DNA from: a virus
Reading direction: 5' to 3' (one strand)
DNA: 64,000 nucleotides
Virus record (IMG/VR): IMGVR_UViG_3300010278_000003
Of this stretch, positions 2,778-44,789 are shown in pieces. How positions within the stretch are numbered: position 1 is the first letter of the stretch; each line of letters starts with the position of its first letter. Made by a program: the position numbers and the translations under genes. The notes below the pieces were generated by a model. It did not search any database. It worked only from the letters and a program-made list of their open reading frames with translations, and was not told the origin of the DNA.

Positions 2778-5700
2778 TTATCTCCTATAAGTACGCTGTA
2801 AAGCGTCAGAACTAAGAGTTTTTAATTGACTAATAAGTTCTTCTCCATTTGAAACGTTAGGAAGTACTAATTTATCAAAGTTATATCTATATACAATATT
2901 GCTTGTTTGAGGTCTACTTACATTATCAAGACTCTTAACAAGAGTGTTAACACCAGTAAACATATCAGAATATACATTGGCAAAAACGTCACTTTGTACA
3001 GTACTGCTCTTAAATATATCAGGTATTTCGACAGGAATTAAATCATCAGGTATGTTAGAGCCATTTTTCATTTTATCATAAGTCTTTAAAATGGCTTGCG
3101 ATTCGTCATGAGGGAATACTTGATCTCCATACTCTAAGTATGTCTTTCGACCTTGTGTTGTATTACGTAAAATAAGCTCTTTGCCTGCATCATCTACTAT
3201 TGCATGATGGGGAATTTTAATTTTGTCCGTACCTTTTGCATGTCGTGTAACAGTTACACTTGTTGTACTACCCGAACTGCTCTTAGTTTCTGACTTTGTA
3301 TTACCTTTTGAGTCTGTTGTTACATTAACAGTTACATTGGTCGAACCACCAATTATACCTGAACTATTAGATGAATCACCATATTTATTTCTAATAGATT
3401 CTGCTTGTTGGTGGTATTGGTGCATTCCTTCTTTGTCGCCTCTTGCTTCAGCTTCTTTATAGGCATCCTGTGCTTTTTTAATGGCATCTTTATCAGATTG
3501 ACTATAACTATCTCTGTATGTTCCATCTGAAGAAAAGTCGCCCCTTTTGTTTCCACCACCATTAGAGCCGCCACCAGACGAGCCACCTCTATATATTTCT
3601 CCGTTTTTAGTATTGATTGTTCCTACTAGAGTGTTGGTTGCTTTATCTACAACTTCAACTACACCATTAAGTCCTTCTTTTAAATCGTAAGCTCCTTCGC
3701 CAAAAGTATCATTCAAAATACCCATAGCATCAGAGTTTTCTTTTAGTTTATCAGAATTGGATTTAATGTTTTTATCTTGTCTATCGGCAGAAATCTTAAG
3801 GTCATTATACTGTTTATTATAGTCAGATCTATAAGCTCGATTAGCATCTACATTACTACCAGGTTCGTAATTAGGGTCATTGACAATTTTATCATAAATT
3901 TTATTAAAGACATCGCTATTATAAATATCCTCAGCATTAGGAATTTCTGTGATATTATCTACTATATCCGAGAAATCAAGGGCAGTATCACTATATCCAG
4001 TTTTAACTAAATTATGATCCCTATCATAGCTAAGACTTGTTACTTTTTTTCCAGAAGCATCATAAGAACCAACAGATGATTCGCTATTTCCATTTTTGGC
4101 ATTCAGTATCTCTCTATAAACTCTCTCAGCATCTTCACGAGCTTTAATAGTTGCTTTTTTATCGCCATTGCTTCCAGTGTTGACCAAATCTAATAGGTGT
4201 TTAGTATATTCTCTACTATTAGGGTCATTAAGCCATTCATCAAGAACTCCCAATTCAATCATTTTATTAAGAGTGCTTTGAGCGTGTTGTCTGTCAGTAT
4301 AACCAGAAGGACTACCTGTAATATAGCTATTCTTAAACCAATCTTTATTTGCAGCAGTAGTGTGTCCATGTATATCGTTAAATTGATAAAAACCATTACC
4401 AATATAAGAAGTATTGTAAGATTTAAAGAAATCTTCAAAATTATCATACTTCTTGCCACTATTATAGCCAGCGTTTTTATTAGCATTTACACCAGAAACT
4501 TTTTCACCTTTTTCACCAAAAAAGCTAAGATAATAATCTCTTGCAGACTTGTAAGCATCGCTATCTTCACCAACAGTTTCCTTAAGCTGTTCAAGACCTT
4601 TTTTGAACGTGTCTTCGTCTATAAGGATTGGATTATCATTGCCATCATAGGATACTCCCGGAAGACGAGTACCATCAGCATTAATGTTACCACCATTTTG
4701 TGTTCCTTTTGCAATACTTTCTGCAACACCGCTTGATACAGCATCTTTGATATCATCAGGTAAACCTTGCATTGTTATATTGAGATTATCAACCGAGTCG
4801 GTTGCATCATCAACATACGAAGAATTGGTAGATACTGCGGAAGTATTAGTATTTAAGCCAGTGGTATTTTTTGAAGTATTAGTGTTTGATTGATCAATGC
4901 TTTTCTTCGTAACTAAAACATTGTCATTTAATACCTCAATAGTACCAGTATAAGCATATTGTCCAGCATTATTATCATCAATTTTAGTTATTAAATCTTC
5001 AACTTTTTTCGAATAAAGACCAGTGATTGTACTTTGATATACACCAGCTTCGTCTTTACGAGAAGGGTCTACTATCTCATAAACACCACCACCTGTTAAT
5101 ATTCTATCACCAACTTTTGCACCAGCAGGAGCTGTGCCGTCTTTATTGGCATAATAATATGTAACATCTTTAGTTGTAGTTTCAGGATGATTTACTCTTA
5201 TAAGATTAGCTATTCTGCCAAATAAATCTTCATATTCATTAAGAATATCCTGTGCTGTCTGCTTTGTTATTTTTTCAATATCTTCACAAACATTGTAATA
5301 TTTATCACCGAAATCTTCGACATCAAGAGTACAATCGTTTACACGTTCTTCCCAATCACTACCAAAAATATTAGAAGCTTTTAACTTATCAGCAGCCTCC
5401 TGCCATTTGTCAGTGATTTTATCCCACATATCTTTGTAATCGTTAAGGGCATCAATTTGTTTTTCAATGTCATTGATACGCTGTTCATTTTCAAAGTCTG
5501 CGAGGTCTTGTTCTTTTTGCTTAATATCATCTTCATCGGCTTCGTAAGTCCAACCAATTCCTTTACGGTAAATATGTACAACTTTATTTTGTTTGGCTTT
5601 TGATAAAGCTTCTTTTAACTGTGCTAATTTTAAGGCACGGTCTTGCTCATCATTAATTGCCTGAAGTTCTTCTTTTTGTTTCTCAAGAGCTTCTATATTA

Positions 5701-8700
5701 TTCTCTATAACTTTAATTACAGCATTTTTAGCAGAATCGTATTTATCTCTTTTATCCTCAAGTAGTTGTTTACGAGCTTCCTTTATACCATTAGATGCAT
5801 CCATTAATTGCTTAATAAGCTTTTGAACTTTCTCAGATGTATTATCAAGTCCTTGTGCGTAAGCATCATTAAGCTCTTTTAATGTTGTAGTAATTTCCTC
5901 ACCAAAAAGCTTAATCTGATCTTCGGTATTATTTAATTCTTTAGCAACACTTATCTTAAACTCAATATCAGTGATTTTATCATCATATATCTGTTCTTTT
6001 AATGACTGTAAATCATCATTATATTGTTCAAGGGTATAATTATTATCTTGCCAAGTAACAGCCAAATCTTTATTGGCATCAGCCATTTCCTCAGTCTTGT
6101 TGATTAAATCTTCATAATAATGAATAAGCTCATTAGTATCTTCTTGGTCTTTACCTTTAAGTTCATTAAGATGTTCTAAATTACTAATATGAAGCTTGTC
6201 CGTATAAGGGTCATAACTAACATCAAAATTCTTTGCTTTTAACTCTGCAACATTTTTCTGAATTTCCTTATCTCTTGCTTCGTTTAATGCTTCGATTGCC
6301 TTTTGCTCTTCTTCCATTGCCGTAATGCGGTCTTTCATAAGAGCAATTTTTTCTTCATTTGTCTTAGCATTATCATATTTTTTGTCTATAGCTTCACGTT
6401 TAGCTTTCGCATCTTCATAGGCTTCGGTAAAGTTACGAAGTGCATCTATTTCTGCTTGATAAGCTTCGGTTTCAGAGCCGCCACCGCCGCCTCCGCCGCC
6501 AGAACCGGAAGAATTTCCAGAATCTTTTGAAGTATTAGATATAAGATTACCATTAATATTTCCAACACCCGTGGTAGCCGTTGTAGAACCAGAGGTTTTC
6601 TTAGTTGTTTTATTTGAGGTTGAAATATTAACCTTGCTTTTTAAACTTGATCCCATACTTCTAGCTATTTCAGAACTTGACATCCCCTCGTATTTAGTTC
6701 CCGCATATCTAACCTTGCTATTACCACCTAAAGAAAATAAAGGTAGATGACCGCCAGTAGCATTTATTTTTGAAGCAATATTATTCCATGTACTTTTTAA
6801 CGAATCAAAATTTCCACCTACACTAATAACAGCACTCGAATTGGAAATACTATCTATGGTATTGTTTGTTGCAGTTACAGCGCTTGATGTGTTAGCACCA
6901 ACTTTAACAGTAGGATTTGAATTATTAACTTTTGATTCGAACTTGGTTAATATATTTTCAGCTTGTTTTGGATCAGCCGTAAATGTTATTACACCATTTT
7001 GATCTGTTTTAACATAATCAAGTTGAGTTTCTACACCGTCAACATTTGCTGTAAAAACAACACTTCCATCTTGTTGCTTTACTGCTTCTATAGTTTGTTC
7101 AACACCGTCAACATTTGCTGTAAAAGTAATAACAGTTCCAGCAGCCATAATACTAATTTTGTTCATAAGAGACTGAAGACTGTCAGCATTATTAATTTTA
7201 GTATCTATAGTTAAAGTGTGAGGAGTTGAGAAAAACTCATTCCAATATTCTACAAAATCATCATCAGAAGCACTTGATATATCAATATTCTTTCCGTCAA
7301 GCCAATTATTAAACTCATCTAAAAGTTCAAGATACTCAGTTTGTTTTGCTTCAATCTTCTTCTGCATCTGCATTATTTCATCGTCACTTGCAGTTCCAGA
7401 AGTAACTCTTGATTGCATTTCGTCCGTTGCTTCGTCTATACCAGATTGAAGAGCAGAGACATAATCATTTGCTATTGTATCTATATTAGTTTGGTCTTCA
7501 AGCATTTTAATGGCTTGATCATTGTACGAGAGCAAAGAAGAATAATCCTCTTTATTTTCGTTACCAAACTTCATTTTTGTTTTTATTTTATCAATTTGAT
7601 CATATAACTGCTGTAAGTTATATTCAAATTTAATTGGAATGTCAAATCCTTCAGTTAAGGCTGACATGTCATCATTAAATCCTGCAACCTGCTTATCCCA
7701 ATTTTCAATTAATTTTCCGAGTTTTTCTTTTCTTGTGCCATCCTGAAGGTCATCATAAACATCTCTTAAAGAAGATATTTCATCTTTAATTTTCTCTATT
7801 GTTTGATATGTATCCTCTACATCATCAAACACAAAGCCATAATCCGACATTGACTTTAAAACCGCACTGACAACCTCAACACTTGTACCTAACTTGTCAG
7901 CTACTTCCTGAGTACTTTTAAAATGTGTTTTAATATTTCCAGTACTTTTGTCGATGTCCACAAGAGTAGGATCTACTTTTTTCAAATCATTCCAGAAGTT
8001 CCACATAGAAGCAGTTTGATCTTCTGAATTAAACCATCTTGATACTTTCTCGTAATTTTTCTTCCAAGCATCAGCATATGCATTTGCAGGAATGGTATAG
8101 GCAGAAGTATCTATTTTTTGAGGATTCATCCATTGTGCAACCGATTGAAAGTCATCAGTACCAATAAAACCACCATCAAATAATTTTTTTGCCTTTTCTA
8201 AATAATCAGATAAAGATGTCCAATCAACACTTGAATTTGCCGATTCAAAGGCGGTTTTTACCGATTCTAAAGTACCGCCTAACACGTTTGCTACATCTTC
8301 TCCAGCTTCTTTGGCTTTTTCAAGAGATTTACGGTACTCGTCAACTGCGTTCTTTGCGTCTTGATAGCTTTTTATTGTATCGTTATCAATGCCCATACTA
8401 ACAGTACGTAATTCATCTTCTGAAAGACTGTTAAAATATGCTTCATATTGAGATGTGTAAGTAACAGAACCTTTTTTGTCTGAAAAGAATTGTTTAATTC
8501 GATTCTTATAATCGTTAGTATCTATCTCACCAATTTTTATATTTACAGTTACAACATCGTTCTCAATTTTATTAGCCATATCAAGATAATCTTGATATAA
8601 TTGTTCCATCTTAGTCTTTTCTTCTTGATCATCGTCATAGACACCAGCATCAAGATACTTTTTAATCGTATCTGCATATTCAAGATATTCTTTCTCAGTT

Positions 8701-9517
8701 TCAAGAAGGGTAGAATTATAATCTTGAAGTTTTTGTTTGGACTTATCTATGTCGTTTTTATAAAGATTAGCAGCAAACGTATTACCTGCATCTGCCATTT
8801 CTTGGGCAGCTTTGGTATAAGTATCTAACTGTTTTTCTACTCTTTCGATATGAAACATAGTATTTCCATATTTTTGAGCACTTTTACCGACCTTGCTACT
8901 TCCAGATTTACTACTAATTACACCTTCGTTTAAAAGACCGCCTCTACCATACAGTTCGTTCTCGGCTAATTTCTTTTGTTCCTGCTCATAAATCTTTTGA
9001 TCAAGTTCAAGTCTTTGTTGTAAATAATCTAAACGAGATTGTTCCGCTTCAGTTAATCCACCTTCATCACGAAGAGCAAGAAGCTTTTTCTCTTCTTCTT
9101 CAAGAGATGATATTTCGGATGAAAGATTGTCAACTATCTCTTGCTGTTCTTCAAGAGTAACATTCAGTTTATCCCAAACCCACATACCTGCTTTAATAGC
9201 TAAATTAACTGCAAGCATAATACCTATGTTTTTAGCTGCATCTAATGCTGCTTTGCCAAATTTAGCGAATTTGTCGGATGAAGCACCAATAAATGAAGCA
9301 TATTGTTCTGCTACATCCTTAGAATAATCACAAGTATTAGTAAACTTTGTTAATTCACCATCTGCGAGTTCAAAATCTTTTGCAAATTCTAATATTTCAC
9401 CTTCATTATTAAAAATTTTTCCTTGTAAGGCTTCAAGAAAATTACTTTGATTTTCTGTCAGTTTTTTAAAGAATGAGCTAAATATTGTACTCCAACCATT
9501 TTCGCCATGATTGACAA
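2778..9517 (-). CDS. Tape measure protein, exon 2 (C-terminal ~2246 codons)
   Basis: The 2146-aa ORF frame is open 107 codons upstream of the called ATG (to 9539) and that ATG lacks an SD. Long coiled-coil protein. Joins exon 1 in frame at 9517. Confidence 0.85.
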
Positions 9518-9539
9518 CGTTGTTATAAAATGGTATATT
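9511..9539 (+). promoter_or_regulatory. sigma-A promoter (extended -10) for the antisense cargo genes, straddling the 3' splice site
   Basis: TTGACA 9511-9516, 17-nt spacer, TG at 9531-9532, TATATT 9534-9539; SD AGGAGG 9573-9578 before ATG 9586. Confidence 0.75.
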
Positions 9540-9585
9540 TTAGTTAATCACTTGAGTTAAATAACCTAAATTAGGAGGGAATATT

Positions 9586-10125
9586 ATGGATGATATCACA
9601 TACAAATTTGCACGTCATGGAAAAATATTTAAATGTCCACACTGCTACGAAACAGGTGGCAATTTAGAGGAATTTAGTAAAACTGCCTCTAAGTTAAATC
9701 CGAATCATAGTGAAAAATTAAAAGAATTCGCAAAAGGTTATTTAGGATTAAGTTTAGATCCACCATTTACAGATACCTGTCCGTATTGTGGAACTAAATT
9801 AATTGACACAGGAATCTCTTTTGATGATGCTATTACAATAAGAGATTTTAGCGATTTCAACAAAGACATATTTAATATGATGATTGATTTACATCAAAAA
9901 GATTTAATAGAATATACAGCTAAAATCAATATGATGAAAGCAAACATAGAAAAAACAAAGATGATTAAAAAAGAAATTGACACAACTCCCAAATGCCCCA
10001 AATGCGGTTCTACAGCTATCACTACAGGAGCGAGAGGTGCAAACTGGGCATGGGGATTTATAGGAGCAAGTCAAACGGTTAACAGATGTGGTAACTGTGG
10101 TTATACTTGGAAACCAAAGAAGTGA
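9586..10125 (+). CDS. Intron cargo: double zinc-ribbon protein
   Basis: Four CxxC pairs (CPHC, CPYC, CPKC, CGNC), a short hydrophobic GANWAWGFIG segment and a strong SD. Confidence 0.75.
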   Translation: MDDITYKFARHGKIFKCPHCYETGGNLEEFSKTASKLNPNHSEKLKEFAKGYLGLSLDPPFTDTCPYCGTKLIDTGISFDDAITIRDFSDFNKDIFNMMIDLHQKDLIEYTAKINMMKANIEKTKMIKKEIDTTPKCPKCGSTAITTGARGANWAWGFIGASQTVNRCGNCGYTWKPKK

Positions 10126-10166
10126 GAAGGGTGTAATACAAAACACATTAATCTATAAAAGGAGAT

Positions 10167-10535
10167 TTGGTTATGAAAAACACACAAAATATTGCATCTC
10201 TCATAGCTCGGCTTGAGTACGAGATTGGAAGAGAATGCTATAATCCAAATTCATATGATGGATATACGGGAGTAGAAGGTCGTGGATATAGATATCCAGT
10301 AAAAGTTTATCAAAACGAAAATATGAGAACATATCGTTATATGATATCAGAAATTTCTCCATCAGAAATTCATACAATGAAGTATGTGTTCGGATCTAAT
10401 CATTTATTTATTGGCAAGGGAATATATAATATTCTCAACACACTTGAAAGAAGATATGGTTTAGATTTTAACGAAATGGAAGAAAACTTAAGCAATAAAC
10501 CAAAAGATGATATTCCGACTACTCGTTTCATTTAA
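10167..10535 (+). CDS. Intron cargo: hypothetical protein
   Basis: 122 aa, SD AAGGAG. Confidence 0.7.
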   Translation: MVMKNTQNIASLIARLEYEIGRECYNPNSYDGYTGVEGRGYRYPVKVYQNENMRTYRYMISEISPSEIHTMKYVFGSNHLFIGKGIYNILNTLERRYGLDFNEMEENLSNKPKDDIPTTRFI

Positions 10536-10578
10536 ATAATGATAAAATATTCCTAACAAATATAAAGGAGAGACTATA

Positions 10579-10857
10579 ATGTATACAACAGATTTCAGCA
10601 TATTCACTCAAATGGTAAATATGGCGAAGCAGAAGAATTTAGATTATATTATTATGTATTCATATCACTCAATTAGTGGTGGCAAATATTCACATTCATA
10701 TTCTTTTGTATTATCAACAAATCTATTTACTGTTACCTTTAAAAAGAAATTTGAAGAAGGGAATGATAATGCTGTACGAGGATTTATTCAACATAATGAT
10801 TGTGTCAAACTTAATTGTGATATGATAATTGAAAAAGATTGTGTTGAATTACATTAA
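10579..10857 (+). CDS. Intron cargo: hypothetical protein
   Basis: 92 aa, SD AAGGAG; stop overlaps the stop of the convergent gene. Confidence 0.6.
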   Translation: MYTTDFSIFTQMVNMAKQKNLDYIIMYSYHSISGGKYSHSYSFVLSTNLFTVTFKKKFEEGNDNAVRGFIQHNDCVKLNCDMIIEKDCVELH

Positions 10858-11087
10858 AAATGTCTATCTTTTAATAATTCCAAAAGACGAATTTTTAAAT
10901 CGTATTCATCCCACTCAAGTTCAGAATACATCTTTAAGGCTTCACTAATTATGAATTCGTCAGATTCAGTTTCTTCCGAATGATTGAATCTGGCGAGTAG
11001 TTTCTGATATTCTACAATTTTATCTATATCAGGAAAAATTTCATTATGTGTTAATTTTTTTGATTGTGAATTTATTTTATCTATCAA
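10854..11087 (-). CDS. Intron cargo: hypothetical protein
   Basis: 77 aa, SD GAGGTG, TTG start. Confidence 0.55.
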   Translation of the reverse strand: MIDKINSQSKKLTHNEIFPDIDKIVEYQKLLARFNHSEETESDEFIISEALKMYSELEWDEYDLKIRLLELLKDRHF

Positions 11088-11141
11088 ATGATTTTCACCT
11101 CGATTTTATTATTATAAGTATTCATACAGGGAGGAATACAT

Positions 11142-11429
11142 ATGAAAAAATTATATTGTCCATTTACTAATGGTAGCTGTAATAACGATTGTATTATGAA
11201 TAATAATTGTTTTGAAGAAAATAATTCTCAAAATTGTATGTTACTTAAATCTGTCGAGTCAATTATATCTTTTGTTAACGGACTTTCGGTTGTAAATAAA
11301 GACACTGAAAAATACTTAAAAAGTATAAGTGACAATACCGGGGACGATCACTCATACTCCTTTGAAATTAACAACAAACTTGATTCGATTAAGAATCTTT
11401 TAGAGGAGATTATTCAGAACGAACAATAA
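11142..11429 (+). CDS. Intron cargo: Cys-rich N-terminus, coiled-coil hypothetical protein
   Basis: 95 aa, CPF...C...C...C...C pattern, SD GGAGG. Confidence 0.65.
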   Translation: MKKLYCPFTNGSCNNDCIMNNNCFEENNSQNCMLLKSVESIISFVNGLSVVNKDTEKYLKSISDNTGDDHSYSFEINNKLDSIKNLLEEIIQNEQ

Positions 11430-11622
11430 GATTCTTAATCTTATTTTCAACAATTCTAAGTAAACCAAAAGCCTGATTGTATGTTAAATTATTTGAGGTT
11501 ATTTCTGAAATTATTTTATCTGACAATGGGGAAATAACCTCTTTTTCAAAATTTTCGTTTTCAGTTTGTTTTTTAATTATTTCTTTAATACTTTCATTCA
11601 TTTCTTTAATATTTTCGTACAT
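11410..11622 (-). CDS. Intron cargo: hypothetical protein
   Basis: 70 aa, SD AAAGGA. Confidence 0.55.
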   Translation of the reverse strand: MYENIKEMNESIKEIIKKQTENENFEKEVISPLSDKIISEITSNNLTYNQAFGLLRIVENKIKNLIVRSE

Positions 11623-11736
11623 TTTATTTTTCCTTTCAATCCGTAGTTAAATATTTTTACTTAAAAATAACTCATACATAGTATTGCAGTACGTACCAAA
11701 GTGTGAGCCTAATATTTTAGAAAGAGTGATAAAATA

Positions 11737-11943
11737 ATGGGATTATTTACCGCTATTATAATTTTTATTATTTTAGCAATCGCCGCAGCAAGTCACGGCG
11801 ATTTTTCTGGTATGCAAATAATAGGAAAAATTGTAGGAGTTATAGCAATGATTGTTATAGTAGCTGTTCTACTAATGAATCCAGTTTTGTTGGTTGCTGC
11901 ACTTATAATTGTTGCTATAATAGCGTTAACCCATAAGAGCTAA
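11737..11943 (+). CDS. Intron cargo: small multi-pass membrane protein
   Basis: 68 aa, almost entirely hydrophobic, 2-3 likely TM segments. Confidence 0.65.
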   Translation: MGLFTAIIIFIILAIAAASHGDFSGMQIIGKIVGVIAMIVIVAVLLMNPVLLVAALIIVAIIALTHKS

Positions 11944-12134
11944 TGACAATAAAAAAGTGGGGCGATACCCACTTCTTTACACATGTCTATTAACAAACAG
12001 ACAATATTATTCCGTTTCGAATACTTTCGGATAATTTTTTCAGCATCTTCTTTCGATGACAAATTATATTCTTTTAAAATATCCGAATAATATGTGTCAC
12101 ATTTAATAACAAGTAACTTAATATAATCTTTCAT
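11940..12134 (-). CDS. Intron cargo: hypothetical protein
   Basis: 64 aa, SD AAGGGG, co-directional with the upstream HTH gene. Confidence 0.55.
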   Translation of the reverse strand: MKDYIKLLVIKCDTYYSDILKEYNLSSKEDAEKIIRKYSKRNNIVCLLIDMCKEVGIAPLFYCH

Positions 12135-12162
12135 AATTACACCCCTTATTGTGTATAATAAT

Positions 12163-12363
12163 TTAGTATGGGAAAATGTCTTCTATTCGTAAATTTAAAG
12201 CTTTGCAAATTTTAATAACAGTACTAAATCTTGGATCTGAATATCCATCTTCTATCAAACTGATACTTGTTTTATTTACTTTTGCTTTTCTTTCCAATTC
12301 ACGCAAAGATATTTTCCGTTCTTCTCTAATTCTTTTAAGATTGTTTTTCATATGCATCACCAA
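12163..12363 (-). CDS. Intron cargo: XRE/Cro-type HTH regulator
   Basis: LKRIREERKISLRELERKAKVNKTSISLIEDGYSDPRFSTVIKICKAL is a classic HTH_3 pattern. Confidence 0.85.
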   Translation of the reverse strand: MVMHMKNNLKRIREERKISLRELERKAKVNKTSISLIEDGYSDPRFSTVIKICKALNLRIEDIFPY

Positions 12364-12951
12364 TAATATGATGTGTTACATCTAAAAGAATTATTTATAC
12401 ATATATTACTACATACAATGGGTTATGTATTAGCCATATGGAAAAATTTTTAATTAATTTAACTTTCGACAAAATCATATTTTATTTTATAACCTTTTAT
12501 AACCTATAACATTCCCAAGTTATTATAGGCTTGTGTGATATGTACTAAGCAGGGCAGTAGAGTAATACTCTAAGTTCGTTTCCCTGTTCGCTTCTTGCAG
12601 CCTTTCGCCACAGTAACGGACTGTATGTTGCAATCTATAAAAATAGACCGTATCTTGTCAGCCTCTCGCACGATATAACATCTTGAAATCACACTTTCAA
12701 TTAACATTTATACCGTGTCGGAACTACCATTTTCGTATCAATAATCTATGATACTTAGTTGTGACACACCCACATGGAGCTTTTATTGCAGTGTCATCAA
12801 TACCTATAAATAGGCTTACGGCTTCCTCCGATATTCGACATATTTAGGATTTCTCCAAGGATTATGTCTACTTGATGAACGACCATCTTGTAGAACACCC
12901 ACTATTATGCATAGTAGGGGGTTTGTAACCATGACTTGTAACTATACGTTA

Positions 12952-15900
12952 GCCCATAACCTTTAGCACCAGCAACACCAGAAATAATTGTTCCTATACT
13001 GCCAAGTGTTCCAACTTTTTCTACAAGAAAATCTAAAGCTTCAATCAGCTTTGTCAGACCTTCTAATACAACCTTTATTGCATCACTATCAAGAAGTGAA
13101 TTTGACAAACCTTCAAAAGCAGCTTTTACTTCTTTTGTTTTTGCTTCAACGCCTTCTTCATATGCGCCAAATTTTTCCATTGCTGTACCAGAAGCATTAG
13201 CAGCAGTTTCAGCATATTTTAAAGCATTAGGATAGTTTTCGAAAAGAACGAGTAATTTTTCAGACTGAGCTGCACCTGCCATTGCAGTCACAATAGCTCT
13301 CTGTTCTACTGAAGTAAATGTATTCCATCTACTTGCAACTTCGTCAATTACATCACCAAAGTTTCTAAATTCATCCTTACTATCACGCAGTTTAATATTA
13401 AATTTCTTAAGAACTTTTTCTACATCTGATAAATCTTCACCGTCATCAGAAATGAATTTGCCAGCCTTAACATTACCCATACGTGAGAATATACGTTTAA
13501 AGGCATTACCGACAGAACTCATGCTATCCTGTGTTGTTTCACCTACAACAGCAGCATATCCCAATAACTGATCCATTGAAATACCCATTGTTCGTGCAGA
13601 GTTTGCAGTTTCTGCCATAGCTTCAGCAAGACCACCAAGAGATACAGCAACCTGAAGGTCAACCGCAGACATTTTATCTACAACATTCATGGCATCAGAA
13701 GCTTCAAGCTTATAACCTTTTAAGGCACTTGTAAGATACTGAGTTGATTCGGCAGAATCAAGTTGACCAACTTTAGACTGTACCATACTGGCTGTTATAA
13801 GATTATTAGTGTCTTCAAGCGAGTAACCCTGTCTTAACCAGCTATCGGCACTTTCCGCAACTTCTTTTGTAGTAGCACCTAAAGTTTTTGCCATACCATT
13901 ATAGGTTTTCATTAGCGAGTTAACATAATCTTCATTCTCACCAGAAGCTATCTGTAAGTTTACAACAGACTCGTTATATTCTTTCGCCGCATTATAAACC
14001 TCAGTAAATCCACGCTGAATATTTTGTAATGCGTTTGCACCAACAAAATATTGAGCTAAGTTTTTAAATGTGGTTTTTAACGTATCACCTAATGTTTTAG
14101 AATTATATCCTGCTGTTTTAACATCATTTGAGAAATTTCTAAATTCACCAGAAAGATCTTGAATATCCTTTCTTGCTTCTCTGATGGATTTTCCATCAAA
14201 ACTATCAGCAAAACCATTTTTAACCCGATCAGCCTGTTCTTTAATCATAATCAGTCTGTTATACATCTCATCAAACTGAGTTACTAATTTTTGAGCTTCG
14301 GGTTTACTTGATGCAAACAATTTTGTATTTGTAGCTTTATAAGCATTAAATTTGGACATTAAAGACTCTGTTTGTTTTATAATAAAATCAGTGTCAGTAA
14401 CATCTTTTTGGTCAGCTTTTGCTTGAGTTTGGGCTTGAGCAACTTGTCTACGTGCTGCTGCATTTTTTAAAACAGCTTCAGTATTACTATCAATTTCAGC
14501 CTTTTCTCTTGCAAAAGCCTCTGTATCAAAATTACCACTTGCTTTTGCATTAGCTAAAGTAGAAGCATATTGTTTTCTTAAAGCCTCAATATTTTCATTG
14601 TTAGCTTTTATTACAGGGGCGTTTTTGACAGGATCTTTTTGGAGAACTTCATTATCTTTTCTTAATTTTTTTATATTATTTAATAACTTTGTAAGCTTGG
14701 TTAGATAGTTTATATCATCTGATTTGTCACTATCTGTTGCGACAGTATCAGTTTCAACAACTTCTTTTTTTTGCTTTTCTACTTTTTTTAAAGCAACTTT
14801 AGTTTTTTCTGCAGAATTAGATGTAGCTTTACCGAAATTGTCTATGGCGTCCTGTGCTGATTTAAATGTTTGTGTTAAAGTTTTTGTTTCACCATTAATA
14901 TCAGATATCTTTTTATTAATTGTAACAAATTCATTGCTGTCAACACTAATAGTATATTCATCACCAAGATTTAAACTATTTTTAATTCGTTGAGCTGCAT
15001 CTAAAGTTTGTTGATATGTAAGAGCAGGGGAAGTTTCATGATCAAAATTAGCCAATTTTTCTTCCAATAGATTGATGTTTTCAATTATAGGTTTTAAAAT
15101 TTCATCAAAAATATTTCCATCTGCATCTATTTTTGCCGAAAAAGTTTTCCAAGCCCCATTAGCATCTTTTATTTTGGCTGTGACCTGCACAAGACCTTCT
15201 GCTAATCCATCAGTTATAAGTTTAGCATCAACAGAGTTACCTAAAATTATATTATCATTTTCAGTTAATTTCTTATTTGCCGCAGTTATATAATCATTAG
15301 AATTGGTGAAAAATTCATCTTCAGAAATTTTTTTATATTTAGAATATTTATTTTTTTTTGCCTTTTTGGGGTTTTTAAAATCTTCTGAAGATCCACCTAA
15401 ATTAGAATTACTATCATTAGATGACTCTTTAACTTGCTTATTTGCCTCGACAAATTCTTTCTTTGCATCGGCAGCTTCACGAGCAGACTTGGCAATCTGA
15501 TTCATTAACTCAGCTTCAAGTTTCAAAGGGTTTTCCGAACTATCAATAGAAGATTGTACTCCTTTATTGGCTGTTGCAAAATCTTTCTTTGCTTGAGCAG
15601 CATCATTAGTTGCTTTCTCCACATTCTCAATACCGTTTGTTTCAGATTTAATGTCAGTAGAAGAATCAGGAAATGCGTCTTTCTTTTGATTAGAAGCCGA
15701 TGAAATATTCGTTTTCTGAGGAGAAGTAAGATCGTTATTTCTAACATTCGCTAATTCAGTTTCAAGCTCTTTAACTTTGTTTGTAAGATTAATTATTTCT
15801 TCAACTGAAGTATTTACATTTAAACCATTCTTGAAAATATCCGGTAATGTACTTACTGCTGTCGAAATTTCTCCAAGCTTACTTACAATAGTGGAAAGTT

Positions 15901-16813
15901 GACCAATAACTTCAGACAAATCAGTTTTGCCAAAAATGTCATTTACAGCTTCAGTTCCGCCATTAGTACTTTTTTTTATTTCGTTTTGAACTTTCGTAAT
16001 TTGTGCTAATGCTGAAGAAGCTTGAGTCCAATAGCTTTTATCCGTACCTTCACGTATTATATCGTGTCCACCATACAATGATTTGGCTTCTTTTCTTGCG
16101 TTCTTGATAAAATCTATATAAGCTTGAAGTTTTTGCATAGAATTATCATACTGATTTATATCAAAATCAAAAAATTTATCAGTAAGTGATCCAGCCGCAC
16201 CTGACATTTTTATATGATTAAATAGATTCTGATAAGATTGCAAAGCACTTGCAATTTTTGCTTGTAATTTTCTATCTAAATCCCCATCTGTGCCAACATC
16301 TATATTCATATTAAATCCAAGATTTTGAGTTTTTGTACTTAATTGAGATATAGAATCACTAACTTGTTTAATTGTTGTAAGCAGGGGAGATAATTCGTTT
16401 CCATCTCCAACATCTGATATTACTTTTTTTATATCAGATAAATGTTTTTCAATGTTAGAAAAAAGCTCTATTGTTGATTTTAATTGCTTTTCATCAATTA
16501 AAGATTTTCCTATTCCCGTATTAATACCTTTACCCGATGCAAAATCTTTAATTATTTTCTGAAATTCTTTTAAATCTTTTGCAAACTGTTCTTTTCCGTC
16601 TGCTACAACTTTAATTTTATAATCAGTAGTAGAAAGTTTCTTTTGTACTTTGTTTAATTCTTTTGCAAGACTTGCATCCGATAAATCAAAGAAAATTTCT
16701 AATTTATTATTCTCCAAATCTCTTTGTGCAGAAGAAATTGCCTTAAGAGCTTGAACCGATACATCATTTTTATCTATAATAATACTCGCTACTAATGAAG
16801 CTACCTCAGCCAC
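12952..16813 (-). CDS. Tape measure protein, exon 1 (contains TP901-type TMP core)
   Basis: The segment AKTLGATTKEVAESADSWLRQG...VVDKMSAVD...GNAFKRIFSRM is typical of the TMP core. The unspliced frame stops at 12905, inside intron hairpin P2. Confidence 0.88.
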
Positions 16814-33205: not shown

Positions 33206-33276
33206 TAGGGCATAACGGACTCGAACCGATACTCACGGGATGAAAACCCATTGTCTTACCTTTTGACTAATGCCCT
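33206..33276 (-). tRNA. tRNA-Glu(UUC)
   Basis: Acceptor AGGGCAT/ATGCCCT, anticodon loop TT-TTC-AT, T loop TTCGAGT; one T-stem mismatch; no encoded CCA. Confidence 0.8.
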
Positions 33277-33280
33277 AAAA

Positions 33281-33355
33281 CGAATCGTATGAGACTTGAA
33301 CCCATGTTATTCTACCGTGACAGGGTAGTACCATAACCAACTAGGCAAACGATCC
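33281..33355 (-). tRNA. tRNA-Asp(GUC)
   Basis: Acceptor GGATCGT/ACGATTC, anticodon arm CTACC-CTGTCAC-GGTAG, T loop TTCAAGT. Confidence 0.85.
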
Positions 33356-39830: not shown

Positions 39831-39911
39831 TACAGCTAACCAGACTCGAACTGGTACGGAATATCCGGTGGATTTTAAGTCCACTGCGTCTACCAATTAC
39901 GCCATAGCTGT
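39831..39911 (-). tRNA. tRNA-Leu(UAA)
   Basis: Acceptor ACAGCTA/TAGCTGT, anticodon arm GTGGA-CTTAAAA-TCCAC, long variable arm CGGATATTCCG, T loop TTCGAGT. Confidence 0.92.
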
Positions 39912-44717: not shown

Positions 44718-44789
44718 CAGGGTGTACAGGATTCGAACCTGTGCATATAGGAGTCAAATTCCTAGGTCTTTCCGCTTGACGAACACCCT
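44718..44789 (-). tRNA. tRNA-Gln(UUG)
   Basis: Acceptor AGGGTGT/ACACCCT, anticodon arm TAGGA-ATTTGAC-TCCTA, T loop TTCGAAT. Confidence 0.9.

What the first reader, a model, noticed from the sequence alone, without database searches (positions are those of the whole stretch)
9522..12493. Long-range helix clamps the ~2.95-kb cargo loop next to the omega-G
Seen in sequence: a perfect 10-bp inverted repeat, GTTATAAAAT (9522-9531) / ATTTTATAAC (12484-12493), extendable through an internal loop. It sits just after the last P9 hairpin on one side and directly abuts the P9.0 AAC-G on the other. A second near-copy (TTTTATAAC 12495-12503) offers an alternative register. Inference: this helix defines the cargo boundary and delivers the 3' splice site to the core. 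It could also allow trans-splicing if the late transcript is discontinuous within the cargo.
Basis: partly seen in the sequence, partly recalled or inferred. Interest (0 to 1): 0.7.

Follow-up and report, generated by a model that had tools for sequence, protein, structure and literature searches.

The report
Weak AU helix spanning intron cargo
A ten-base-pair match that brackets the 3-kb insert of a self-splicing intron in a phage tail gene is really there, but relatives of the intron lack it and instead hold the far splice site to the ribozyme with a different, conserved loop-to-loop contact, so the reported helix is at most a local extra.

Summary
The 10-nt perfect inverted repeat (9522-9531 / 12484-12493) and its near-copy (12495-12503) exist as described. 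This exact 10-mer occurs nowhere else in the window. Everything is read on the minus strand. A group I intron (12951 down to 9518) splits a tape-measure gene, and the repeat flanks the roughly 3-kb loop-out between the last core hairpin (P9.2) and the 3' splice site.

The helix is not a family feature. In 11 related introns with mapped 3' ends (loop-outs 655-6091 nt), including the closest relative L018, the equivalent segments pair over only 4-7 bp. The placement is unusual at p about 0.02 for this window, but about 0.2 across the family. The isolated duplex is worth only -6 kcal/mol. Its 3' strand is the spacer of a conserved antisense promoter that straddles the splice site.

What is conserved is a kissing contact between the P9.2 loop (12512-12520) and the loop of a small hairpin 26-35 nt before omega-G (9548-9556). 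It has compensatory variants in every relative, and the window's version is the weakest.

The same stretch was also noted from an overlapping window of this genome (e1-5676134).

The parts
12952..16813 (-). Tape-measure gene, exon 1
   Evidence: Pfam PF10145 and tape-measure PHROG profiles match up to residue about 1287 of 1302. A contiguous 2550-aa relative, P0011, aligns to it.
9518..12951 (-). Group I intron, 3434 nt, with its core at the 5' end and a long loop-out before the 3' splice site
   Evidence: The frame stays open without a start codon from 9539 to 9218. The exons join in frame. Introns sit at the same site in L001, L003, L005, L006, L018, L020, L022. Core pairings are supported by covariation.
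12503..12951 (-). Ribozyme core, P1 to P9.2
   Evidence: 83% identical to L018 down to 12501. P3-P9.2 form 76% standard pairs on alignment A2 against 35-42% in slid controls, with 26 pairs changed on both sides.
12503..12529 (-). P9.2 hairpin. Its loop (12512-12520) is one partner of the conserved kissing contact.
   Evidence: The stem covaries in 8 of 9 pairs. The loop is complementary to the tail in all relatives.
12484..12493 (-).
   Evidence: It lies in sequence that has no counterpart in L018.
12495..12503 (-). Near-copy of the 5' strand (alternative register). Its last base is the closing pair of P9.2.
   Evidence: Pair probability is about 0.015, against 0.14 for the main register.
9586..12363 (.). 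Looped-out genes on both strands: a Cro/CI-type regulator (12166-12363, minus), a zinc-ribbon protein (9586-10125, plus) and small ORFs
   Evidence: Pfam and PHROG hits. The zinc-ribbon protein family recurs next to the 3' splice site in every relative.
9544..9560 (-). Small tail hairpin. Its loop (9548-9556) pairs with the P9.2 loop: 12520-12514 with 9550-9556, 7 pairs including one G-U.
   Evidence: Same distance from omega-G as in L018 (32 nt). Relatives have 8-11 pairs at 26-35 nt. Energy is -8.1 kcal/mol, against -10.5 to -14.1 in relatives.
9522..9531 (-). On the plus strand it is the spacer of the antisense promoter.
   Evidence: It differs at 3 of 10 positions from L018:74-83.
9518..9521 (-). 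Three nucleotides that can form P9.0 with 12616-12618, then the terminal G
   Evidence: Read from the sequence. The same four-nucleotide ending occurs in L018, L020, L033, L001, L039.
9511..9539 (+). Antisense sigma-70-like promoter across the 3' splice site, driving the zinc-ribbon gene
   Evidence: Matches 11 of 12 consensus positions with an extended -10, the best in the region. The equivalent promoter is present in L018, L020 and L003.
2778..9517 (-). Tape-measure gene, exon 2
   Evidence: Homologues P0004-P0011. P0011 aligns to it downstream of its match to exon 1.

Best explanation
The 10-bp pairing is a real but lineage-specific, weak, almost pure A-U complementarity. It is most likely fortuitous, or at most a minor helper. 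In this intron family the 3' splice site is brought back to the ribozyme across 0.65-6 kb of looped-out genes by a conserved kissing interaction. The partners are the loop of the last core hairpin (P9.2; window 12512-12520) and the loop of a small hairpin 26-35 nt upstream of the terminal G (window 9548-9556). The usual short P9.0 and P10 pairings act at the splice site itself. Shown: the pairing exists; relatives lack it; the loop-loop complementarity is conserved through compensatory changes; the core folds as a group I ribozyme. Inferred: that the kissing contact forms in RNA and promotes the second splicing step.
For: The closest relative, L018, shares the core (83%), the same splice sites and the 3' tail. 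It has 3 changes in the 10-nt 3' strand and unrelated sequence where the 5' strand should be. Across 11 relatives, the best perfect pairing between the 60 nt after P9.2 and the last 24 nt of the intron is 4-7 bp, with shuffle p of 0.12-1.0. The window has 10 bp at p 0.018, so the family-wise chance of one such case in 12 is about 0.2. Duplex-energy z-scores average -0.19 over the family. The isolated duplex is -6.0 kcal/mol and its pair probability in a two-piece fold is 0.14. The 3' strand lies in the spacer of an antisense promoter conserved in the window, L018, L020 and L003. Kissing contact: 7-11 complementary bases in every one of 11 relatives, always 26-35 nt before omega-G. There are at least four different compensatory sequence states, including one lineage (L005/L006) with the two strands swapped. 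The P9.2 stem covaries in 8 of 9 pairs.
Against: The placement is improbable by chance at the 1-3% level. The window has the weakest kissing contact of the family: 7 pairs with a G-U, -8.1 kcal/mol, and not significant on its own (p 0.32). This leaves room for a compensating helix. An unrelated lineage, L003, has its own 10-bp pairing with three G-C pairs in the corresponding position. Engineered precursors show that a duplex next to omega-G helps the second step across a long insert (PMC11417360). No close relatives (87-95% identical exon 2) could be fetched, so short-range conservation is untested.
Confidence: 0.6

Rival explanations
1. One reading: in this phage the 10-bp helix is a selected auxiliary clamp next to omega-G. 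It extends P9.0 and compensates for a degenerate kissing contact and a large loop-out.
For: Placement p is 0.007-0.027. The two-piece minimum-energy fold contains it. The window's kissing contact is the weakest in the family. L003 has an analogous 10-bp pairing. Homology arms next to omega-G raise the efficiency and accuracy of the second step in engineered group I precursors (PMC11417360).
Against: It is absent in 11 relatives, some with larger loop-outs of up to 6 kb. It is only -6 kcal/mol, with one G-C pair. It crosses the kissing contact topologically rather than stacking on it. There is no family-wide tendency for these segments to pair.
Confidence: 0.25
2. The repeat acts on DNA: three copies of one short motif serve as binding sites for the cargo's Cro/CI-type regulator. 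Two tandem copies lie about 130-150 nt upstream of the regulator gene and one lies in the spacer of the antisense promoter. Together they couple the two ends of the cargo.
For: A 66-aa helix-turn-helix regulator is encoded at 12166-12363. One copy sits exactly in the 17-nt spacer of the 11/12 promoter. The exact motif is confined to these sites in 64 kb.
Against: L020 and L033 also carry such a regulator but share no motif between the two positions. No convincing promoter lies downstream of the tandem copies. One-mismatch copies are at chance frequency: 32 found against 27 expected.
Confidence: 0.08
3. The repeat is a scar or terminal repeat left by the recombination event that brought in the window-specific part of the cargo.
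For: The 5' strand lies immediately after the point (12501) where homology with L018 ends, inside a tandem duplication.
Against: The 3' strand is not at a homology breakpoint. The zinc-ribbon gene, promoter and tail on that side are shared with L018, and the breakpoint is near 10000-10126. There is no target-site duplication.
Confidence: 0.05
4. The helix joins two separately made RNA pieces for trans-splicing.
For: None beyond the existence of complementary ends and of internal promoters.
Against: -6 kcal/mol is too weak for bimolecular assembly. The strong internal promoter points the wrong way (antisense). No sense-strand promoter or terminator pair that would cut the precursor was found.
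Confidence: 0.02

Closest known systems
Phage T4 nrdD (sunY) group I intron and its remote 3'-terminal domain (Michel and co-workers, early 1990s; recalled from memory, not checked here)
   Same: The ribozyme core is at the 5' end. A long coding insert separates it from the 3' splice site. Short pairings near the 3' end (P9.0, P10 and a 3'-terminal domain) dock the distant splice site.
   Different: Here the insert holds several genes, some read from the opposite strand. The docking element supported by comparison is a loop-loop contact between P9.2 and a tail hairpin. The 10-bp helix has no counterpart.
Peripheral kissing-loop contacts of group I introns such as P13 and P14 of the Tetrahymena intron (established knowledge, from memory)
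   Same: Two hairpin loops with 6-10 complementary bases clamp peripheral domains around the core.
   Different: Here one partner lies beyond 0.65-6 kb of inserted genes, so the contact also closes the loop-out. Homology to P13 or P14 was not tested.
Engineered cis-splicing circular-RNA precursors with homology arms and P9.0 next to omega-G (PMC11417360)
   Same: A duplex formed by sequences on either side of a long insert, placed next to omega-G, raises the yield and accuracy of the second step.
   Different: That system is artificial, uses the Tetrahymena and other ribozymes, and has arms longer and stronger than this 10-bp A-U helix.
Group I introns in tape-measure genes of Bacillus cereus-group prophages, sites IVS1-3 (PMC2504315)
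   Same: Self-splicing introns interrupt the phage tape-measure gene and are spread by phages.
   Different: Different hosts (this family is found in Lachnospiraceae prophages and gut phage contigs). Relatedness of sites and sequences was not tested. Those introns carry at most a homing-endonuclease gene.

Membership tests
Group I intron | Conserved core helices P3-P9, with the P3/P7 pseudoknot, supported by comparison | tested here: met
   On 23 family members (A2), 59 proposed pairs are 76% standard pairs against 35-42% when slid. 26 pairs change on both sides against 10-14 in slid controls. 0 of 500 shuffles reach the observed values.
Group I intron | Terminal G at the 3' splice site and in-frame ligation of the flanking exons | tested here: met
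   The G at 9518 is preceded by the same three nucleotides as in five relatives. Joining 12952 to 9517 keeps the frame, and a contiguous relative, P0011, covers both exons in order.
Group I intron | P1 with a wobble pair (usually U-G) at the 5' splice site, plus an internal guide that also pairs with exon 2 (P10) | tested here: inconclusive
Reading by hand gives a short P1 ending on a C, not a U, and a long P10. L018 has the same C. Relatives L001 and L005 end exon 1 on a U. An alternative U-G hairpin at 12916 could not be excluded by me.
Group I intron | Match to the Rfam model RF00028 | tested here: not met
   No hit for the window core even at E up to 10 in a 551-nt search, nor for L018, L025, L015, L017, L036. 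A more distant intron at the same gene site (L003) scores 20.4 bits, E 0.007, below the gathering score of 50. The model evidently covers this subgroup poorly.
Group I intron | Self-splicing activity | not testable with these tools
   Needs in vitro transcription and splicing.
Peripheral helix that closes an ORF-bearing loop of a group I intron (the role claimed for the 10-bp helix) | The helix is kept, with compensatory changes, in related introns that carry different inserts | tested here: not met
   4-7 bp at the corresponding place in 11 relatives; mean z -0.19.
Kissing-loop tertiary contact (the role proposed for P9.2 loop x tail hairpin loop) | Complementarity of two hairpin loops maintained through changes on both sides | tested here: met
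   7-11 complementary bases in 11 of 11 relatives at a constant distance from omega-G, in at least four sequence states including a strand swap. In the window there are only 7 pairs with one G-U, and this is not significant alone (p 0.32).

The most novel reading that the evidence does not exclude
This phage lineage let the family's kissing contact decay. It replaced or reinforced that contact with two new long-range duplexes across the 3-kb cargo: the 10-bp helix next to omega-G, and a 15-bp perfect pairing between intron 12440-12454 and exon 2 at 9408-9422. This would be a natural counterpart of the 'homology arms' used to make engineered group I precursors splice across long inserts, and a visible case of turnover in how a ribozyme tethers a remote splice site.
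Probability: 0.2. Interest if true: 0.5.

Novelty: new member of a known kind. Interest (0 to 1): 0.3.

Why it matters
If the helix were the tether, it would show how a ribozyme copes with a 3-kb multi-gene insert. The comparison shows instead that the family solves this with a conserved loop-loop contact that survives inserts from 0.65 to 6 kb and complete exchange of the cargo. That gives a concrete, testable element for anyone studying or engineering group I introns with very long inserts. It also marks the 10-bp helix as a low-priority target. The family is missed by the Rfam group I model, so its introns will be mis-annotated as split tape-measure genes in gut phage and Lachnospiraceae prophage genomes.

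Tried and rejected
1. Nucleotide and protein searches of the GenBank phage collection with the intron, the core and exon 2 found nothing.
2. No whole genome is held for the window.
The contigs of the closest relatives (P0004-P0006) could therefore not be fetched. A scan of viral contigs for a window/L018-specific core stretch returned only L018, and a window-specific 31-mer found nothing.
4. A 9-10 bp complementarity between a core segment (12725-12733) and the 3' tail (9527-9535) looked attractive in the window and L018. I rejected it. The core segment is the 3' strand of P5 with its junction. The tail segment is the extended -10 region of the antisense promoter. L020 and L033 lack the match.
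5. I first placed the 5' splice site at a U-G pair in the hairpin at 12898-12918. Protein profile ends and relatives favour 12952.
6. A family-wide 'soft' purine-rich/U-rich pairing of the two segments was tested and not found.
7. RNAduplex of the whole tail against the intron gave only long, loop-ridden A-U pairings and was uninformative.
Full report
OBSERVATION. The 10-mer at 9522-9531 and its exact reverse complement at 12484-12493 are present, with a 9-nt near-copy at 12495-12503. The exact 10-mer occurs only at these two places in the 64-kb window. One-mismatch copies are at chance frequency, 32 found against 27 expected.

CONTEXT. Everything relevant is read on the minus strand.
- A 1302-aa ORF (12905-16813) matches tape-measure profiles up to about residue 1287.
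- A second frame is open from 9539 down to 2778 but has no start codon until 9218.
- A contiguous 2550-aa relative (P0011) aligns first to the upstream ORF and then to the downstream one.
- Joining 12952 to 9517 keeps the frame.

The 3434 nt between (12951 to 9518) are therefore an intron. Its first roughly 450 nt are structured. The rest carries genes on both strands: a Cro/CI-type regulator, a zinc-ribbon protein and small ORFs.

IS IT A GROUP I INTRON? Rfam's model does not see the window's core. A more distant intron at the same position of the gene (L003) gives a weak full-length match to RF00028.

A pattern taken from the P7-P3-P8 region found 31 viral contigs. A 19-mer from the same region found 12 further copies, mostly in Lachnospiraceae genomes.

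On an alignment of 23 of these (A2) I mapped the pairings worked out by hand for the window (P3, P4, P5, P6, P7, P8, P9, P9.1, P9.2). Results:
- 76% of cells are standard pairs, against 35-42% with the partners slid.
- 26 pairs change on both sides, against 10-14 in the slid controls.
- None of 500 shuffles reaches the observed values.
- P8, P9 and P9.2 covary at nearly every pair.

The fold is that of a group I ribozyme with a terminal G. The 5' splice-site pairing I leave as inconclusive.

RELATIVES WITH THE SAME GENE SITE. L001, L003 (with L002 and L004), L005, L006 (with L007), L018, L020/L033/L014/L028, L022 and its many near-copies, L039/L043, L046, L048 and L053 all have the core first. 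They then have a loop-out of 655 to 6091 nt and then a short tail.

L018 is the closest:
- Its core is 83% identical to the window down to 12501, which is the last base of P9.2.
- Its sequence is then unrelated until the end of a homologous zinc-ribbon gene.
- It is then 79% identical from 9578 into exon 2.

TEST OF THE HELIX.
- In L018 the ten nucleotides corresponding to the 3' strand (L018:74-83, minus) differ at three positions. Nothing after its P9.2 is complementary to them.
- Using one procedure for all (60 nt after P9.2 against the last 24 nt of the intron), the window gives 10 bp (shuffle p 0.018). The 11 relatives give 4-7 bp (p 0.12-1.0).
- One such case among 12 is expected with probability about 0.2.
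- Duplex energies of the same segments give z = -1.96 for the window and a family mean of -0.19.
- The isolated duplex is worth -6.0 kcal/mol. In a two-piece fold with 100-nt flanks the helix is in the minimum-energy structure, but with pair probabilities of only 0.14. The alternative register reaches 0.015.
- Perfect inverted repeats of 10 nt or more at 0.2-4 kb spacing number 578 in the window.
- Only L003, a different subgroup, has a comparable feature: a 10-bp pairing with three G-C pairs (L003:8977-8986 with 9739-9748), ending 10 nt before its terminal G.

WHAT THE 3' STRAND ALSO IS. The best sigma-70-like site of the region (11 of 12, extended -10) lies on the plus strand at 9511-9539, just upstream of the ribosome-binding site and start of the zinc-ribbon gene. 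Its -35 element lies in exon 2, its spacer covers the terminal G and the last 16 nt of the intron, and its -10 element lies in the tail. The same arrangement scores 11 of 12 in L018, L020 and L003. This explains why the flanking bases are conserved with L018 while the spacer itself drifts.

THE CONSERVED LONG-RANGE CONTACT. In L018 the nine-base loop of P9.2 (L018:1253-1261, minus) is perfectly complementary to nine bases of the tail (L018:102-110), ending 32 nt before the terminal G. The same holds, with different sequences, in other relatives:

| Relative | P9.2 loop | Tail partner |
|---|---|---|
| L020 | 3826-3833 | 7763-7770 |
| L033 | 6413-6420 | 10695-10702 |
| L022 | 2616-2623 | 5118-5125 |
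| L005 | 1157-1164 | 3028-3035 |
| L006 | 7187-7194 | 9673-9680 |

It also holds in L039, L043, L046, L053 and L048. Overall there are 7-11 pairs, always 26-35 nt before the terminal G.

At least four compensatory sequence states occur. In L005/L006 the two strands are exchanged. Their tail hairpins have different stems but the same loop. The tail partner sits in the loop of a small hairpin, so the contact is loop to loop.

In the window the homologous bases (12520-12514 with 9550-9556) form seven pairs, one of them G-U. That is -8.1 kcal/mol against -10.5 to -14.1 in relatives, and on its own it is not significant. Because the partners are an inverted repeat in DNA, a DNA-level role cannot be formally excluded. 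Three points favour RNA: the loop positions, the covarying stems with G-U pairs, and the G-U in the window.

MECHANISM. The most likely sequence of events is as follows. After transcription of the core, P9.2 presents its loop. Once the polymerase has crossed the cargo, the tail hairpin forms and kisses that loop. This places the last 30 nt, with P9.0 and the terminal G, near P7, and P10 aligns exon 2. The 10-bp A-U duplex could add a little stability next to the terminal G. It crosses the kissing contact rather than stacking on it.

Engineered precursors show that a duplex adjacent to the terminal G does help across long inserts (PMC11417360). The comparative data simply do not single out this helix. 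Tape-measure introns as such are known from Bacillus cereus-group prophages (PMC2504315).

LIMITS.
- The number of truly independent lineages among the 11 relatives is perhaps six or seven.
- Splice sites of relatives were placed by frame and homology, not by experiment.

Noticed in passing
window 12440-12454 and 9408-9422: A 15-nt perfect inverted repeat, one of only two that long in the window. It is worth -12.7 kcal/mol, 0 of 300 shuffles reach it, and it is absent in five relatives. Its core is partly palindromic, and a 2-mismatch copy lies at 9619-9633. It could be a second local clamp or a protein-binding site.
   Followed up: partly
window 9586-10125 (+); L018, L020:6754-7782, L005:1929-2965, L006:7949-9634, L003:9226-9708, L001:9316-9888: Every intron of this family carries, next to the 3' splice site, one to three genes of one zinc-ribbon protein family with a conserved C-terminal double-cysteine motif. 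They are mostly on the antisense strand and are driven by a promoter that straddles the splice site. Pfam gives only weak zinc-ribbon hits.
   Followed up: partly
L018:575-1095 (minus strand): Inside the intron of the closest relative lies an open stretch that translates to a tape-measure exon-2-like segment, corresponding to residues about 280-440 of exon 2. This suggests a past recombination or duplication within the gene.
   Followed up: no
L005:701-2632 versus L006:6731-8699: Two contigs share the intron core and the first part of the cargo at 93% identity. They then diverge completely, including the start of exon 2, and carry different numbers of the zinc-ribbon genes. The cargo and downstream exon are exchanged by recombination while the core is kept.
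   Followed up: partly
L051:7720-8000: A family member in a different host gene seems to end a few nucleotides after the conserved block that precedes P9.2. It has no P9.2, no cargo and no tail hairpin. The two kissing hairpins may therefore belong to the cargo-bearing forms only. The locus ends 96 nt later.
   Followed up: no
L046 (two copies, at about 1563-1967 and 6776-7180): One Lachnospiraceae contig holds two copies of the intron core within 8 kb, with different P9.2 loops but one tail that fits both.
   Followed up: no
window 12440-12990; L018, L015, L017, L025, L036: Rfam RF00028 gives no match to this intron subgroup even with relaxed thresholds, so automatic annotation will report split tape-measure genes.
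   Followed up: yes
L039-L053: Genome hits place the intron family in prophages of Lachnospiraceae and other Clostridia (for example Mediterraneibacter hominis NSJ-55), which suggests the host range of the window's phage. Three hits in Actinomycetota and Acidobacteriaceae contigs are chance matches of the 19-mer.
   Followed up: partly
window 33206-33355, 39831-39911, 44718-44789 (minus): Four tRNA genes, consistent with a large phage genome. The protein cluster of exon 2 reports a 224-kb contig.
   Followed up: no
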